Source: the human T2T-CHM13v2.0 reference genome, Homo sapiens. From it: a stretch of DNA of 64,000 nt. Positions within the stretch are counted from its first letter, which is position 1. Each line of letters begins with the position of its first letter. The notes beneath the pieces were generated by a model, which was given only the letters and a program-made list of their open reading frames with translations, did not search any database and had not been told where the DNA came from. The DNA lies in assembly GCF_009914755.1 (NCBI RefSeq), contig NC_060933.1; one strand, written 5' to 3'. The position numbers and the translations under genes were made by a program. Below are positions 1 to 5,219 of this stretch, in pieces.

Positions 1-425
1 AATGGAATGCTTTTAATAGCACCCAAGTCACCTTTTGAATGCTTTGCTGCTTAGAAATTTCTTCCATACCAGGTACCCCAAATCATCTCAAGTTCAAAGT
101 TCCACAAATCTCTAGGGCAGGGGCAAAGTGCTGCCAGTCTCTTTGCTAAAATATAACAAGAGTCACCTTTACTCCAGGTCCCAACAAATTCTTCATCTCC
201 ATCTGAGATCACCTTGGCCTGGACCTTATTGTTCATATCACTATCAGCATTTTTGTCAAAGCCATTCAACAAGTCTCTAGGAGGTTCCAAACTTTCCGAC
301 ATTTTCCTGTCTTCTTCTGAGTCCTCCAAACTGTTCCAACCTCTGTCTGTTACCCAGTTCCAAAGTCATGTCCACATTTTCATGTATCTTTTCAGCAACA
401 CCCCACTCTACTGGTACCAATTTAC
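1..425 (-). mobile_element. THE1 (MaLR) internal region, 5' part; continues beyond the window start
   Basis: Reverse complement is homologous to the THE1D internal region at 61716-62150 of this window; ORF 51..329 resembles ORF 61923..62354. Confidence 0.92.
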
Positions 426-590
426 TGTATTAGTTCTTTTCACGCTGCTGATAAAGACATACCCGAGACTGGGAAGAAAAAAATGTTTCATTGGACTTAC
501 AGTTCCACATGGCTGGAGAGGCCTTAGAATCATGGTGGGAGGTGAAAGGCACTTCTTTCATGGTGGCAGCAAGAGAAAAATGAGGAAGAA
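426..590 (-). mobile_element. THE1C-like LTR, truncated first copy
   Basis: Begins TGTATTAG (reverse LTR end); breaks at 590 into L1 sequence. Confidence 0.88.
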
Positions 591-879
591 TCCCTGAATA
601 GACCAATAACAGGTTCTAAAATTGAGGCAATAATTAATAGCCTACCAATCAAAAAAGTCGCAGACCAGACGGATTCACAGTTGAATTCTGCCAGAGGTAC
701 AAAGAGGAGCTGGTACCATTCCTTCTGAAACTGTTCCAATCAATAGAAAAAGAGGGAATCCTCCCTAACTCATTTTATGAGGCCAGCATCATCCTGATAC
801 CAAAGCCTGGCAGAGACACAACAAAAAAAGATAATCTTAGACCAATATCCCTGATGAACATCGATGCAAAAATCCTCAA
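588..879 (+). mobile_element. Internal L1PA ORF2 fragment (~290 bp, no poly-A)
   Basis: GAATCCCTGAATAGACCAATAAC...GATGCAAAAATCCTCAA; homologous to L1PB 43165-43453. Confidence 0.93.
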
Positions 880-1385
880 GTCTCTAGGAGGTTCCAAACT
901 TTCCAACATGTTCCTGTCTTCTTCTGAGCCCTTCAAACTGTTCCAACCTCTGCCTGTTATCCAGTTCCAAAGTCATATCCACATTTTCAGGAATCTTTTC
1001 AGCAACACCCCACTCTGCTGGTACCAATGTACTGTATTAGTTCATTTTCATGCTGCTGATAAAGACATACCCGAGACTGGGAAGAAAAAAAGGTTTAATT
1101 GGACGTACAGTTCCACATGGCTAGAGAGGCCTTAGAATCATGGCGGGAGGCAAAAGGCACTTCTTACATGGCCACAGCAAGAGAAAATGAGCAAGATGCA
1201 AAAGCAGAAACCCCTGATAAACCCCTCAGATTTCATGAGACTTATTCACTAGCATGAGAATAGCATGGGAAAGACCAGCACCCATGATTTTATTACCTTC
1301 CCTTGGGTCTCTTGCACAACACGTGTGAATTCTGGGAGATACAATTCAAGTTGAGATTTTGGTGGGGACACAGCCAACCATATCA
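877..1385 (-). mobile_element. Second copy of THE1 internal end (877-1032) plus complete THE1C-like LTR (1033-1385)
   Basis: 877-1197 repeats 270-590; LTR ends CCATATCA at 1385. Confidence 0.9.
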
Positions 1386-2577
1386 CCTTCCTTACACCTT
1401 ATACAAAAATTAAGATGGATTAAAGACTTTAATGTTATACCCAAAACTATAAAAATTCTAGAAGAAAATCTAGGCAATATCATTCAGAACCTCAGCATGG
1501 GCAAAGATTTCATGAGTAAAAACACCAAGAGCAATTGCAACAAAAGCAAAAATTGAAAAATGGGATCTAATTAAACTAGAGATATTCTGCACAGCAAAAG
1601 ACACTATCATCAGAGTGAATAGGCAGCCTACACAATGGGAGAAAATTTGTGCAATCCATCTATCTATCCGACAAAGGTATAATATCCAGAGTCTACAAGG
1701 AACTTAAACAAATTTACAAGAAAAAACAAACAACCCCATTAAAAAGTGGGGAAAGACATGAGCTGAGTCTTCTCAAGACACATATGTGGCCAAAAAACAT
1801 GAAAAAGAAGTTTAACATCACTGATCATTAGACAAATGCAAATCAAAACCACAATGAGATAACATCTCACACCAGTCAGAATGGCTATATTTAAAAAGCC
1901 AAAATACAACATATGCTGGTGAGATTGCAGAGAAAATGGATGCTTTTACACTGTTGGTGGGAGTGTAAATTAGTCCAACCATTCTGGAAGACAGTGTGGT
2001 AATTCATCAAAGACCTAGAGGCAGAAATACCATTTGAGCCAGCAATCCCATTATGGGTTATATACCCAAAGGAATATGAATAATTTTATTTAAAGATACA
2101 TGCACGCGTATGTTCAGTGCAGGACTATACACAATAGCAAAGACATGGAATCAACGTAAGTGGCCATCAATGATAGACTGAATAAAGAAAATGCGGTACA
2201 TATACACCATGGAATACTATGCAGCCATAGAAAGGAATGAGATCATATTCTTTGCAGGAACATGGATAGAGTTGGAAGCCATTAGCCTTAGAAAATTAAT
2301 GCAGGAACAGGAAAGCAAACACAGCATGTTCTCACTTATAAGTGGGAGATGAGTGATCAGAGTGCATGGACATAAGGCAGGGAACAACACACACTGTGGC
2401 CTGTTGGGGTGGGGGTGTGGGAAGGGAGAGCATCAGGAAGAATATCTAATGGATGTTGGGCTTAATCCTAGGTGATGGGATGATCTGTGCAGCAAACCAC
2501 CATGGCACATGTTTACCTATGTAACAAATCTACACATCCTGCACATGTACATCTGAACTTAAAAGTTGAAGAAAAAA
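1386..2577 (+). mobile_element. Older L1PA (about L1PA11-15) ORF2 end and 3' UTR; host of the THE1 insertion
   Basis: ORF2 C-terminal homology; 3' UTR GGTGATGGGATGATCTGTGCAGCAAACCACCATGGCAC; short A tail. Confidence 0.85.
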
Positions 2578-2744
2578 GGAAGGGAATGTTGATAAACATA
2601 AAGACAGAGAGAAAGAGAGTGAGGAGACAAGAAAGGAGGAGGAAAATCAAGTAAATGGAAAGAGAAAGAGGGAGATATGTGATTGCTTGATTGGAAATAT
2701 GAAAAGAAAACAGTTCTTTTGAATTTTCTAGTTAATAATACCAT

Positions 2745-2815
2745 TTTGCTTAAGTTGAATTTTACACTTTAAGTGAGTGAATTTTATAGCATGTGAATTA
2801 TATCTCAATAAAGGT
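2745..2815 (+). mobile_element. Ancient L1M 3' terminus
   Basis: TACACTTTAAGTGAGTGAATTTTATAGCATGTGAATTATATCTCAATAAAG is a typical L1MB/ME end. Confidence 0.65.
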
Positions 2816-3149
2816 GTTTTCAAAGGGAATGCTTCCAGTTTTTTCCCATTCAGTATGATATTGGCTGTGGGTTTGTCATAAATAGCTCTTATTATTTTGA
2901 GATATATTCCATCAATATCTAGTTTATTGAGAGTTTTTAGCATGAAAGATGGTTGAATTTTGTCAAAGGCCTTTTCCGTATCTACTGAGATAATCATGTG
3001 GTTTTTGTCATTTGTTCTGTTTATGTGATGGATTACGTTTATTGATTTGCATATGTTGAACCAGCCTTGCATCCCAGGGATGAAGCTGACTTGATCTGGG
3101 TTGGATCAGCTTTTTGATGTGCAGCTGGATTCGGTTTGCCAGTATTTTA
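2816..3149 (-). mobile_element. Inverted 5' segment of a twin-primed L1PA5/6-like element (ORF2 RT N-terminal part)
   Basis: ORF 2728..3072(-) [19 protein letters not shown]...KLEAFPLK is L1 ORF2. Confidence 0.93.
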
Positions 3150-5219
3150 CAGAGGGATGCCCTCCCTCACCACTCCTATTCAACATAGTGTTGGAAGTTC
3201 TGGCCAGGGCAATCAGGAAAGAGAAAGAAATAAAGGGTATGCAGTTAGGAAAAGAGGAAGTCAAATTGTCCCTGTTTGCAGATGACATGATTGTATATTT
3301 AGAAAACCCCATGTTCTCAGCCCAAAATCTCCTTAGGCTGATAAGCAACTTCAGCAAAGTCTCAGGATACAAAATCAATCTGCAAAAATCACAAGCATTC
3401 CTATACACCAATAACAGACAAACAGAGAGCCAAATCATGAGTGAACTCCCATTTACAATTGCTTCAAAGAGAATAAAATACCTAGGAATCCAACTTACAA
3501 GGGATGTGAAGGATCTCTTCAAGTAGAACTACAAACCACTGCTCGACGAAATAAAAGAGGACACAAACAAATGAAAGAACATTCCGTGCCATGGATAGGA
3601 AGAATCAATATCGTGAAAATGGCCATACTGCCCAAGGTAATTTATAGATTCAATGCCATCCCCATCAAGCTACCAATGACTTTCTTCACAGAATTGGAAA
3701 AAAACTACTTTAAAGTTCATATGGAATCAAAAAGAGCACACATCGCCAAGAAAATCCTAAGCAGTAAGAACAAAGCTGGAGGCATCACACTACCTGACTT
3801 CAAACTATACTACAAGGCTACAGTAACCAAAACAGCATGGTTCTGGTACCAAAACAGAGATATAGATCAATGGAACCGAACAGAGCCCTCAGAAATAATG
3901 CCACATATCTACAACTATCTGATCTTTGACAAACCTGACAAAAACAAGCAATGGGGAAAGGATTCCCTGTTTAATAAATGGTGCTGGGAAAACTGGCTAG
4001 CCATATGTAGAAAGCTGAAACTGGATCCCTTCCTTACACCTTATACAAAAATTAATTCAAGAAGGATTAAAGACTTAAACGTTAGACCTAAAACCATAAA
4101 AACCCTAGAAGAAAACCTAGGCATTACCATTCAGGACATAGGCATGGGCAAGGACTTCATGACTAAAACACCAAAAGCAATGGCAACAAAAGCCAAAATT
4201 GACAAATGGGATCTAATTAAACTAAAGAGCTTCTGCACAGCAAAAGATACTACCATCAGAGTGAACAGGCAACCTACAGAATGGGAGAAAATTTTTGCAA
4301 TCTACCCATCTGACAAAGGGCTAATATCCAGAATCTACAAAGAACTTAAACAAATTTACAAGAAAAAAAACAAGCAACCCCATCAAAAAGTGTGCAAAGG
4401 ATATGAACAGACGCTTCTCAAAAGAAGACATTTATGCAGCCAACAGACACATGAAAAAATGCTCATCACCACTGGTCATCAGAGAAATGCAAATCAAAAC
4501 CACAATGAGACACCATCTCACACCAGTTAGAATGGCGATCATTAAAAAGTCAGGAAACAACAGGTGCTGGATACGATGTGGAGAAATAGGAATGCTTTTA
4601 CCCTGTTGGTGGGACTGTTAACTAGTTCAACCATTGTGGAAGACAGTGTGGCGATTCCTCAAGGATCTAAAACGAGAAATACCATTTGACCCAGCCATCC
4701 CATTACTGGGTATATACCCAAAGGATTATAAATCATGCTGCTATAAAGACACATGCACACGTACGTTTATTGCAGCACTATTCACAATAGCAAAGACTTG
4801 GAACCAACCCAAATGTCCATCAGTGACAGACTGGATTAAGAAAATATAGCACGTATACACCATGGAATACTATGCGGCCATAAGAAAGGATGAGTTCATG
4901 TCCTTTTCAGGGACATGGATGAAGCTGGAAACCATCATTCTGAGCAAACTATCACAAGGACGGAAAACAAAACACCGCATGTTCTCACTCATTGGTGGGA
5001 ATTGAACAATCAGAACACTTGAACACAGGGAGGGGAACATTACACACTGGGGCTTGTTGTGGGGTAGAGGGCCAGGGGGAGGGATAGCATTAGGAGAAAT
5101 AAGTAATGTAAATGACGAGTTAATGTGTGCAGCAAACCAACATGACATGTATACCTCTGTAACAAACCTGCACATTGTGCACATGTACCCTAGAACTTAA
5201 AGTATAAAGAAAAAAAAAA
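3150..5219 (+). mobile_element. L1PA5/6-like 3' segment (RT FADD motif, ORF2 C-terminus, 3' UTR, poly-A); defective
   Basis: ORFs 3101..3526 (LFADDM), 3571..4530 and 4634..4849; stop at 3524 and frameshifts; A tail to 5219. Confidence 0.96.

What the first reader, a model, noticed from the sequence alone, without database searches (positions are those of the whole stretch)
270..5219. One L1 apparently integrated as three colinear pieces at two sites 2 kb apart, with a 321-bp target duplication
Seen: piece A (588-879, +) ends ...GATGCAAAAATCCTCAA. Piece B (3149 to 2816, -) begins TAAAATACTGGCAAACCG and ends GCATTCCCTTTGAAAAC. Piece C (3150-5219, +) begins near (A)GGGATGCCCTC. In L1 ORF2, A|B are adjacent (gap or overlap of at most ~6 nt) and B|C are ~10 nt apart; the L1PB in this window shows the same order at 43437-43470 and 43770-43810. 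A has no poly-A and sits between two copies of the THE1 internal/LTR junction (270-590 and 877-1197; about 13 differences in a 160-bp stretch I counted). It has 3-nt microhomologies at both ends (GAA, CAA). The two copies share AAGTCAT where the window's THE1D has AAGTTGC, which favours local duplication. B/C has no TSD and joins the flank through GTTTT. Established: B+C is the twin-priming 5' inversion pattern. Inference: a third genomic 3' end, a bottom-strand nick at 270, primed on the same RNA where B stopped (or captured that cDNA); resolution at 590 duplicated 321 bp. Repeat annotation would call these unrelated fragments.
Basis: partly seen in the sequence, partly recalled or inferred. 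Interest (0 to 1): 0.85.

Follow-up and report, generated by a model that had tools for sequence, protein, structure and literature searches.

The report
One L1 insertion split three ways
An ancient human L1 jumping-gene copy appears to have been laid down in one event as three abutting pieces at two DNA breaks about 2.5 kb apart, copying 320 bp of host DNA on the way; this shape was known only from tumour genomes.

Summary
A (588-879, +), B (2816-3149, -) and C (3150-5219, +, A-tail) tile one L1 3' portion. In 23 of 29 related L1 copies the last base of A and the first of B are neighbours. About 8-11 nt are missing between B and C, as is usual for twin priming. A sits between two copies (270-589, 877-1196) of one THE1 segment that differ by 25 substitutions in 320 bp.

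- A and C fit the same L1 cluster.
- Their private mutation loads do not differ.
- The age of the duplication matches.
- The A|B boundary is not a hotspot for L1 3' ends: 1 real case against 6,303 uninterrupted copies.

I put about 0.8 on a single retrotransposition event. How A was made is open: a third primer on the RNA, or A derived from the tail of the inverted cDNA. The decisive test, primate orthologues, could not be run.

Tumour long-read studies already describe single L1 events split over two junctions that share a breakpoint. This is therefore a new variant of a known kind: old, germline-fixed, local and in three pieces. Small corrections: the left microhomology is GA, not GAA, and B is somewhat more diverged.

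The parts
1..269 (-). X: internal part of a THE1-type LTR element that continues leftward out of the window; undisturbed flank of the duplication
Evidence: Colinear with the THE1-like element at window 61337-62157.
270..589 (.). D1: left copy of the duplicated THE1 segment (internal/LTR junction)
   Evidence: 92% identical to 877-1196. It is the best non-self match of D2 in the genome. The two copies share 5 derived states.
588..879 (+). A: 292-nt L1 ORF2 fragment in sense orientation, with no A-tail. Its ends overlap THE1 by GA (588-589) and CAA (877-879).
   Evidence: 94-95% identical to its best genomic L1 copies. Junctions read. Its end maps one base before B's start.
877..1196 (.). D2: right copy of the duplicated THE1 segment, running on into the rest of the LTR
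1197..2815 (.). R: unduplicated DNA between the two sites. It holds the rest of the THE1 LTR to 1384, an older L1 3' fragment at 1386-2577 (+), and non-repeat sequence at 2578-2815.
   Evidence: 1386-2577 is 78.6% identical to C. 877-1384 is colinear with the comparator element.
2816..3149 (-). B: 334-nt inverted L1 ORF2 segment. It covers the L1 stretch immediately 3' of A.
   Evidence: 93% identical to its best genomic copies. Its start abuts A's end and its end lies 8-11 nt before C's start.
3150..5219 (+). C: direct L1 3' portion (rest of ORF2 and the 3' UTR) ending in a 10-A tail
   Evidence: 95-96% identical to its best genomic copies over the first 501 nt. Tail and right flank read.

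Best explanation
**What it is.** A, B and C are the products of one L1 retrotransposition event that was resolved at two breaks about 2.5 kb apart. I put about 0.8 on this core claim.

**How the cDNAs were made, under the usual TPRT and twin-priming geometry (inference):**
- The bottom-strand 3' end at the right flank primed on the A-tail and made C.
- The top-strand 3' end at 2815 primed inside the RNA, possibly through GTTTT/AAAAC, and made the inverted B. B stops at the L1 site ..CAA|TAAAA...
- The RNA just 5' of that stop was then copied from a third DNA 3' end. This was the bottom strand at the left edge of D2, paired through CAA, and it gave A.
- A's cDNA end joined the top-strand end at 589 through GA.

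**The duplication.** The 320-bp repeat is the 'large target-site duplication' of that second site. It arose either from staggered breaks or from extension of the reciprocal end before joining.

**The exact A|B abutment.** It follows if B's cDNA ran up to the annealed third primer. It also follows if the third primer used the RNA stub left after B's template had been used.

The confidence given here is for this three-primer version.
For: **Shown**
- A and B are exactly adjacent in 23 of 29 L1 copies, and in the alignment.
- B and C have an 8-11 nt gap and opposite orientation, with one A-tail. This lies within the usual range for twin priming: 66% of inverted insertions have an internal deletion, median 14.5 bp (passages).
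- A has no A-tail and has 2-3 nt microhomologies at both ends.
- D1 and D2 flank A exactly. The comparator element carries the segment once.
- D1 and D2 share 5 derived states. The other copies share at most 4 with D2, and 1 of 378 copy pairs reaches 5.
- A and C fit the same cluster, and distances within that cluster are typical for both.
- Private mutation rates do not differ.
- The divergence of the duplication, 7.8%, matches the age of the L1 pieces.
- Only 1 real 3' boundary lies within 4 nt of the site, against 6,303 intact copies.
- cDNA 5'-type ends are mildly enriched at the site, with 7 real cases. That fits a natural stop for B.

**Precedent:** single L1 events whose pieces lie in two junctions and share one breakpoint have been described in tumours (passages).
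Against: - No orthologous empty or filled site was examined, so simultaneity is inferred.
- None of the THE1 breakpoints looks like an L1 endonuclease site (TTTT/AA), by my inspection. The second site therefore needs another source of breaks.
- The gap at A|B is zero, whereas the B|C gap of the same event is about 10 nt. A zero gap is not the typical outcome when one cDNA meets a downstream primer.
- B is the most distant piece within the cluster: median 10.0% against 6.3-9.9% for 15 reference copies. It also fits the cluster poorly at informative sites, with 11 of 25 mismatches.
- The one L1 copy that appears in both A's and B's top-40 lists is ordinary towards C, at 92.7%. There is thus no sibling evidence for a shared source.
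- With only 292 nt, resolution between subfamilies is low. A's log-likelihoods for clusters D, M and O are close: -7.4, -8.1 and -10.4.
Confidence: 0.45

Rival explanations
1. One event, but no third primer. The internally primed cDNA ran on through A, covering B plus A (626 nt). When C's cDNA joined it at the present B|C junction, the last 292 nt were left as a 3' tail. That tail then took one of two routes. Either the broken THE1 top strand copied it, switching in through GA and switching back 320 bp upstream through CAA, which would create the duplication. Or it was cut off and captured at the THE1 break.
For: - The zero-nt gap at A|B is the natural outcome of cutting or copying a tail at its base.
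- Microhomologies of 2-3 nt at both A junctions fit template switching.
- This route needs only one broken end in THE1.
- Published models for L1-associated small tandem duplications invoke replication from the reciprocal end (passage).
- Templated insertions during L1 integration have been reported.
Against: - The B|C junction shows only 0-1 nt of microhomology, plus a possible 2-nt extra AG. That is a weak anchor for leaving a 292-nt tail.
- The 6 nt after B match the expected continuation into A at only 4 of 6 positions.
- No direct trace of the tail remains.
Confidence: 0.33
2. Two steps. An ordinary twin-primed L1 first held an inverted B-plus-A segment next to C. A later DNA rearrangement then removed exactly the A part and re-inserted it, flipped, into the THE1, together with the 320-bp duplication.
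For: It would also give pieces that are colinear in L1 coordinates and of the same subfamily.
Against: - One excision breakpoint must fall exactly on the older inversion junction and leave no scar at 3149/3150.
- It needs four breakpoints in a second event.
- The age of the duplication equals that of the L1 pieces, which leaves little time between the two steps.
Confidence: 0.07
3. Coincidence. A is an independent, poly-A-less L1 fragment of the same subfamily, for example an endonuclease-independent insertion at a break. It happens to end where the neighbour's inverted segment begins.
For: - The region is L1-rich. One search shows four other L1 stretches in the window.
- 3'-truncated or tail-less mobile element insertions are not rare among human polymorphisms (passage).
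- The site is a mild hotspot for cDNA ends (L022 and L026).
Against: - Sense-strand 3' ends within 4 nt of the site are about 0.1% of copies, from 1 filtered case against 6,303.
- Orientation-independent abutment, the same cluster, the same mutation load and a duplication of matching age would all have to coincide as well.
Confidence: 0.05

Closest known systems
Twin priming (5' inversion of L1 insertions; Ostertag and Kazazian 2001, known to me from reference lists and recall, described in passages)
   Same: B+C has an inverted 5' segment joined to a direct 3' segment with an A-tail. The two are colinear in L1 with a small internal loss, and two DNA 3' ends are used on one RNA.
   Different: A third colinear piece lies 2.2 kb away in sense orientation. 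No target-site duplication flanks B+C.
Single L1 events 'sawed in half' that bridge two rearrangement junctions in tumours, and 'twin priming and 5' switching' (preprint 10.1101/2024.08.27.596794; passages only)
   Same: L1 pieces lie at two separate junctions, share one L1 breakpoint and have only one A-tail. Those authors use that shared breakpoint as the argument for a single event, and it is the argument used here.
   Different: Those cases are somatic, in tumours, and join distant or different chromosomes with two pieces. This case is fixed in the germline, is tens of millions of years old by divergence, is local (2.5 kb), keeps the order and orientation of host DNA, and has three pieces with a 320-bp tandem duplication.
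Endonuclease-independent / non-classical L1 insertions (Sen et al. 2007, PMC1920257; passages)
   Same: Piece A is 3'-truncated, has no A-tail, has junctions unlike the endonuclease consensus, and has microhomology at both ends.
   Different: Those loci were defined by the absence of any flanking duplication and mostly carry target deletions. A is flanked by a 320-bp duplication and is tied to a tailed neighbour.
L1-associated small tandem duplications viewed as large target-site duplications (preprint 10.1101/2024.12.14.628481; passages)
   Same: A direct duplication of host DNA flanks an L1-derived insert. Extension of the reciprocal end is the proposed source.
   Different: Those reported are 1-10 kb and flank polyadenylated inserts in experimental clones or tumours. 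Here the duplication is 320 bp around a tail-less internal fragment.

Membership tests
Twin-primed L1 insertion (B+C) | Inverted 5' segment directly joined to a direct 3' segment of the same element | tested here: met
   B occupies 2816-3149 (-) and C occupies 3150-5219 (+), with no bases between them.
Twin-primed L1 insertion (B+C) | The two segments are colinear in L1, with a small gap or overlap at the inversion point | tested here: met
   B's end maps to y and position 4 of C maps to y+12 in contiguous copies, so 8-11 nt are missing.
Twin-primed L1 insertion (B+C) | A-tail at the 3' end | tested here: met
   A run of 10 A ends at 5219.
Twin-primed L1 insertion (B+C) | Flanking target-site duplication of about 7-20 bp | tested here: not met
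   The best local match between the flanks is a 7-mer. 260 of 2000 shuffles and 377 of 2000 random pairs reach that score.
Twin-primed L1 insertion (B+C) | Endonuclease-type target (TTTT/AA) at the tail side | tested here: inconclusive
   The empty site is unknown. The A-run may hide the target bases.
Non-classical (endonuclease-independent) L1 insertion (piece A) | 3' truncation and no A-tail | tested here: met
   A ends inside ORF2 at ..TCCTCAA and runs straight into THE1.
Non-classical (endonuclease-independent) L1 insertion (piece A) | No flanking duplication (criterion of Sen et al. 2007; passage) | tested here: not met
   A direct duplication of about 320 bp flanks A.
Non-classical (endonuclease-independent) L1 insertion (piece A) | Junctions diverge from the endonuclease consensus | tested here: met
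   By inspection, the bottom strand at 269-273 reads ..GACTTG/TTGA.. and the top strand at 589 reads ..AAGA/TG... Neither resembles TTTT/AA.
Single L1 event spread over two junctions (tumour class) | L1 pieces at separate junctions share an L1 breakpoint | tested here: met
   A's end and B's start are adjacent L1 bases in 23 of 29 copies.
Single L1 event spread over two junctions (tumour class) | Only one A-tail or endonuclease mark for all pieces | tested here: met
   Only C has a tail.
Single L1 event spread over two junctions (tumour class) | All junctions arose at the same time | not testable with these tools
   This needs primate orthologues. The indirect checks passed: same cluster, same mutation load, and a duplication of matching age.

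The most novel reading that the evidence does not exclude
Germline 'triple priming'. If that is general, some of the tail-less 'orphan' L1 fragments in mammalian genomes are split-off parts of neighbouring insertions. L1 RNPs would then patch clusters of breaks in the germline, a class that repeat annotation cannot see.
Probability: 0.4. Interest if true: 0.6.

Novelty: new variant of a known kind. Interest (0 to 1): 0.5.

Why it matters
- It would show that complex, multi-junction resolution of a single L1 event also happened in the primate germline and became fixed. Until now this has been seen with long reads in tumours and in engineered cells.
- It gives a clean three-piece example with base-level junctions that constrains models: where the internally primed cDNA stops, what becomes of the RNA 5' of that stop, and how large target duplications form.
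- It suggests a simple genome-wide screen for hidden events of this kind: look for orphan L1 pieces whose L1 coordinates abut a neighbour's inversion.
- It changes no gene. The locus is intergenic according to the hub's annotation.

Tried and rejected
**Sibling test.** One L1 copy is in both A's and B's top-40 lists. Its C region is only 92.7% identical, so it gives no support for a shared source lineage.

**Excess change in B.**
- I looked for an editing-type or otherwise excess mutation pattern. B deviates at 20 of 326 sites, with G>A 5 and C>T 4.
- Private rates do not differ from C (Fisher p 0.29), and 11 of 46 copies have a B/C ratio at least as high.
- I dropped the idea, although B remains the most distant piece.

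**Apparent excess divergence of A and B** against an unbiased chr1 sample. This was explained by the make-up of the sample, which is dominated by a younger cluster.

**Target-site duplication for B/C.** Not significant.

**Hotspot explanation for the abutment.** Rejected for 3' ends. There is only a mild effect for cDNA ends. I classified the filter hits by eye.

**Naming the L1PA subfamily.** No repeat library was at hand, so I did not attempt it.

**Tools and limits**
- The phrase 'triple priming' together with LINE-1 is in no paper of the searched library. Searches found nothing closer than the tumour preprint.
- The supplements of the two bioRxiv preprints were not seen and may hold local cases like this one.
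Full report
**What is there.** The window begins inside a THE1-type LTR element on the minus strand. Its segment 270-589 recurs at 877-1196 (93% and 92%). Full alignment gives 25 substitutions (14 transitions, 11 transversions, 4 at CpG) and 2 gap columns in 322 columns.

Between the two copies lie 292 nt of L1 ORF2 in sense orientation with no A-tail (A, 588-879). After the rest of the LTR, an older L1 3' fragment (1386-2577, 78.6% identical to C) and 240 nt of other sequence come two more L1 segments. The first is an inverted ORF2 segment (B, 2816-3149). The second is the direct 3' portion with a 10-A tail (C, 3150-5219), which follows B with no base between them.

**Colinearity.**
- Against the old L1 of the same window, A maps to 43165-43453, B to 43455-43787 and C from 43803.
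- The window's genome could be searched. A, B and the first 501 nt of C each find thousands of L1 candidates, with best identities of 95%, 93% and 96%.
- In 23 of the 29 fetched L1 loci, A's last base and B's first base are neighbours. One locus has A aligned only to position 240, and five have no colinear A.
- The alignment shows ..TCCTCAA|TAAAATACTGG.. uninterrupted in the copies.
- C starts 8-11 nt after B's end. The spread comes from a 2-nt irregularity at C's first bases.
- 13,870 genomic sites hold the uninterrupted 27-nt junction with at most one mismatch.

**Junctions.**
- On the left, THE1 ..AGGAAGA meets L1 ..GA|ATCCCTG. The shared bases are GA, because the next THE1 base is T in D2 and in 7 of 7 other copies with a base there. 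D1's G at the variable position is the common state, seen in 21 of 24.
- On the right, L1 ..CCTCAA meets THE1 CAAGTCTC, sharing CAA.
- By inspection, neither THE1 breakpoint resembles the L1 endonuclease site.
- B joins its left flank at ..AAAGGT|GTTTTC.
- No significant target-site duplication flanks B/C. The best match is a 7-mer, reached by 260 of 2000 shuffles and 377 of 2000 random pairs.

**Is D a local duplication?**
- D1 is the best non-self match of D2 in the genome. The margin is narrow: 92% against 91% for the next, with 40 of 6,064 candidates scored.
- Against 28 other copies, D1 and D2 share 5 states that differ from the common state. Other copies share at most 4 with D2 (median 1), and 1 of 378 copy pairs reaches 5.
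- The comparator element at 61337-62157 carries the segment once and is colinear with X-D and with D-R.
- The structure and the shared states together support a duplication of a single-copy segment.

**Same subfamily and age?** I built a panel of 46 L1 copies that span A to C, out of 59 fetched. Of the 46, 21 had been chosen by similarity to one piece and 25 are an unbiased sample taken from chromosome 1 by the junction motif. At first sight A and B looked 2-3% too far from the unbiased sample. A state matrix of 116 informative columns explained this. The sample is dominated by a tight younger cluster that differs most in the A and B regions.

Results when copies selected by the piece under test are left out:

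| Measure | A | B | C |
|---|---|---|---|
| Best-fitting cluster | D | ambiguous (O, M, then D) | D |
| Mismatches to the modal states of cluster D | 2 of 24 | 11 of 25 | 12 of 58 |
| Median distance to cluster D copies | 7.9% | 10.0% | 6.5% |
| Typical distance of a cluster D copy to the others | 8.3% | 7.7% | 6.0% |
| Cluster D copies at least as distant as the piece | 7 of 11 | 0 of 15 | 3 of 12 |
| Private changes (shared by at most 1 of 46 copies) | 5 of 287 | 10 of 326 | 20 of 991 |

- The private rates do not differ (Fisher p 0.29 to 1). B's ratio to C is matched or exceeded by 11 of 46 copies.
- The duplication, at about 3.9% per copy, agrees with my estimates of 3.5-3.8% for A and C, taken as the median distance minus half the copy-to-copy distance.
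With 292 nt the power is modest.

**Could the abutment be a hotspot effect?** Three fetched loci have breaks near the site, which made me check. They are L022 (an inverted segment starting 7 nt away), L026 (a 5' truncation 2 nt away) and L092 (an insertion there).
- A filter pattern for L1 sense-strand ends within 4 nt of the boundary gave 3 hits with an exact anchor, all small deletions inside intact L1. The matching count of intact copies is 1,539.
- With a relaxed anchor it gave 9 hits, of which I read 8 as small indels and 1 as a real boundary. The matching count of intact copies is 6,303.
- The mirror filter for 5'-type ends gave 23 hits. I read 7 as real, 5 of them junctions to other L1 parts, and 16 as indel variants.
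- The site is therefore a mild stop or joining site for cDNAs but not a place where L1 sense sequence tends to end. With a nominal pass rate of about 0.18 for the filter, about 0.1% of copies end there, so a chance abutment is of the order of 0.1-0.3%.

**Mechanism.** This part is inference. B+C is ordinary twin priming. By the same geometry A is a first-strand cDNA on the bottom strand, primed from the left edge of D2. Both 3' ends of the 2.5-kb fragment D2-R therefore primed on one RNA at points 334 nt apart, while the right flank primed on the tail.

The exact A|B abutment follows under three scenarios:
- B's cDNA ran up to the annealed third primer.
- The third primer used the RNA stub left 5' of B's template.
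- A derives from a 292-nt tail of a longer inverted cDNA that was copied or captured at the THE1 break.

The 320-bp duplication is then a large target-site duplication of the second site. I cannot tell these versions apart. The zero gap leans towards the tail models. The near absence of microhomology at B|C leans against them. A later rearrangement or pure coincidence each require unlikely extra coincidences.

**What is known.**
- *Preprint 10.1101/2024.08.27.596794* (passages). It describes twin-priming variants with template switching (20 cases). It also describes single L1 events 'sawed in half', whose pieces lie in two rearrangement junctions, share one L1 breakpoint and have one tail. All of these are somatic, in tumours.
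- *Preprint 10.1101/2024.12.14.628481* (passages). It treats small tandem duplications at L1 sites as large target-site duplications, and reports reverse transcription primed from non-endonuclease ends.
- *Sen et al. 2007* (passages). They define tail-less, 3'-truncated L1 insertions at breaks but exclude any that have flanking repeats.
- *PMC12016303* (passages and section 8). It gives inversion rates of 18-22% and notes peaks of breakpoints.
- *PMC12350158* (passages). It reports that 15.7% of polymorphic mobile element insertions are non-canonical.
- I found no description of a three-piece, two-site, germline-fixed case. 'Triple priming' with LINE-1 occurs in no paper of the library, and searches gave nothing closer.
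- The supplements of the preprints were not seen.

**Verdict.** The single-event reading is supported at about 0.8, and the mechanism within it is open. This is a new variant of a known kind. The orthologue test remains decisive and undone.

Noticed in passing
window 13042-14849: A second twin-primed L1 in the same window. The inverted part is at 13042-13994 and the direct part at 13995-14849, with a 6-nt gap in L1 coordinates. The two parts are 95% and 89.6% identical to C.
   Followed up: no
L1 site at the A|B boundary (window 872-879 and 3142-3149; genome-wide counts): The A-rich L1 site ..CAATAAAATA.. collects cDNA-type ends. I read 7 real boundaries within 4 nt, 5 of them inversion junctions. 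By contrast there is 1 sense-strand 3' end, against 6,303 intact copies.
   Followed up: partly
genomic L1 copies listed: At least 7 L1 copies carry the same 4-nt deletion at that site (..TCAATACTGG..). This is either a small lineage or recurrent slippage in the A-run.
   Followed up: no
L022:910-1188; L026:1159; L092:982-2271: Three fetched L1 loci break near the same site. L022 has an inverted segment starting 7 nt 3' of it. L026 is 5'-truncated 2 nt 5' of it, beside an A-rich tail. L092 is interrupted there by about 290 bp with a 20-bp repeat of L1 sequence.
   Followed up: partly
window about 665-667 (alignment columns 80-82): Piece A carries three adjacent base changes. Two of the three states are seen in none of the 46 compared copies, and the third in 2 of them. 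It looks like one multi-base event.
   Followed up: no
window 2816-3149: Piece B is the most diverged of the three. Its median distance within its cluster is 10.0%, against 6.3-9.9% for 15 copies. 6 of its 10 private changes are transversions. This is not significant on these numbers.
   Followed up: yes
window 1384-1386: The 5' end of the THE1 LTR (..CCAACCATATCA at 1384) directly abuts the 5'-truncated older L1 fragment that runs to an A-rich tail at 2577. The order of those two insertions was not worked out.
   Followed up: no
window 61337-62157 and 63288-63653: Further THE1-like sequence, 68-74% identical to the element at the window start.
   Followed up: partly
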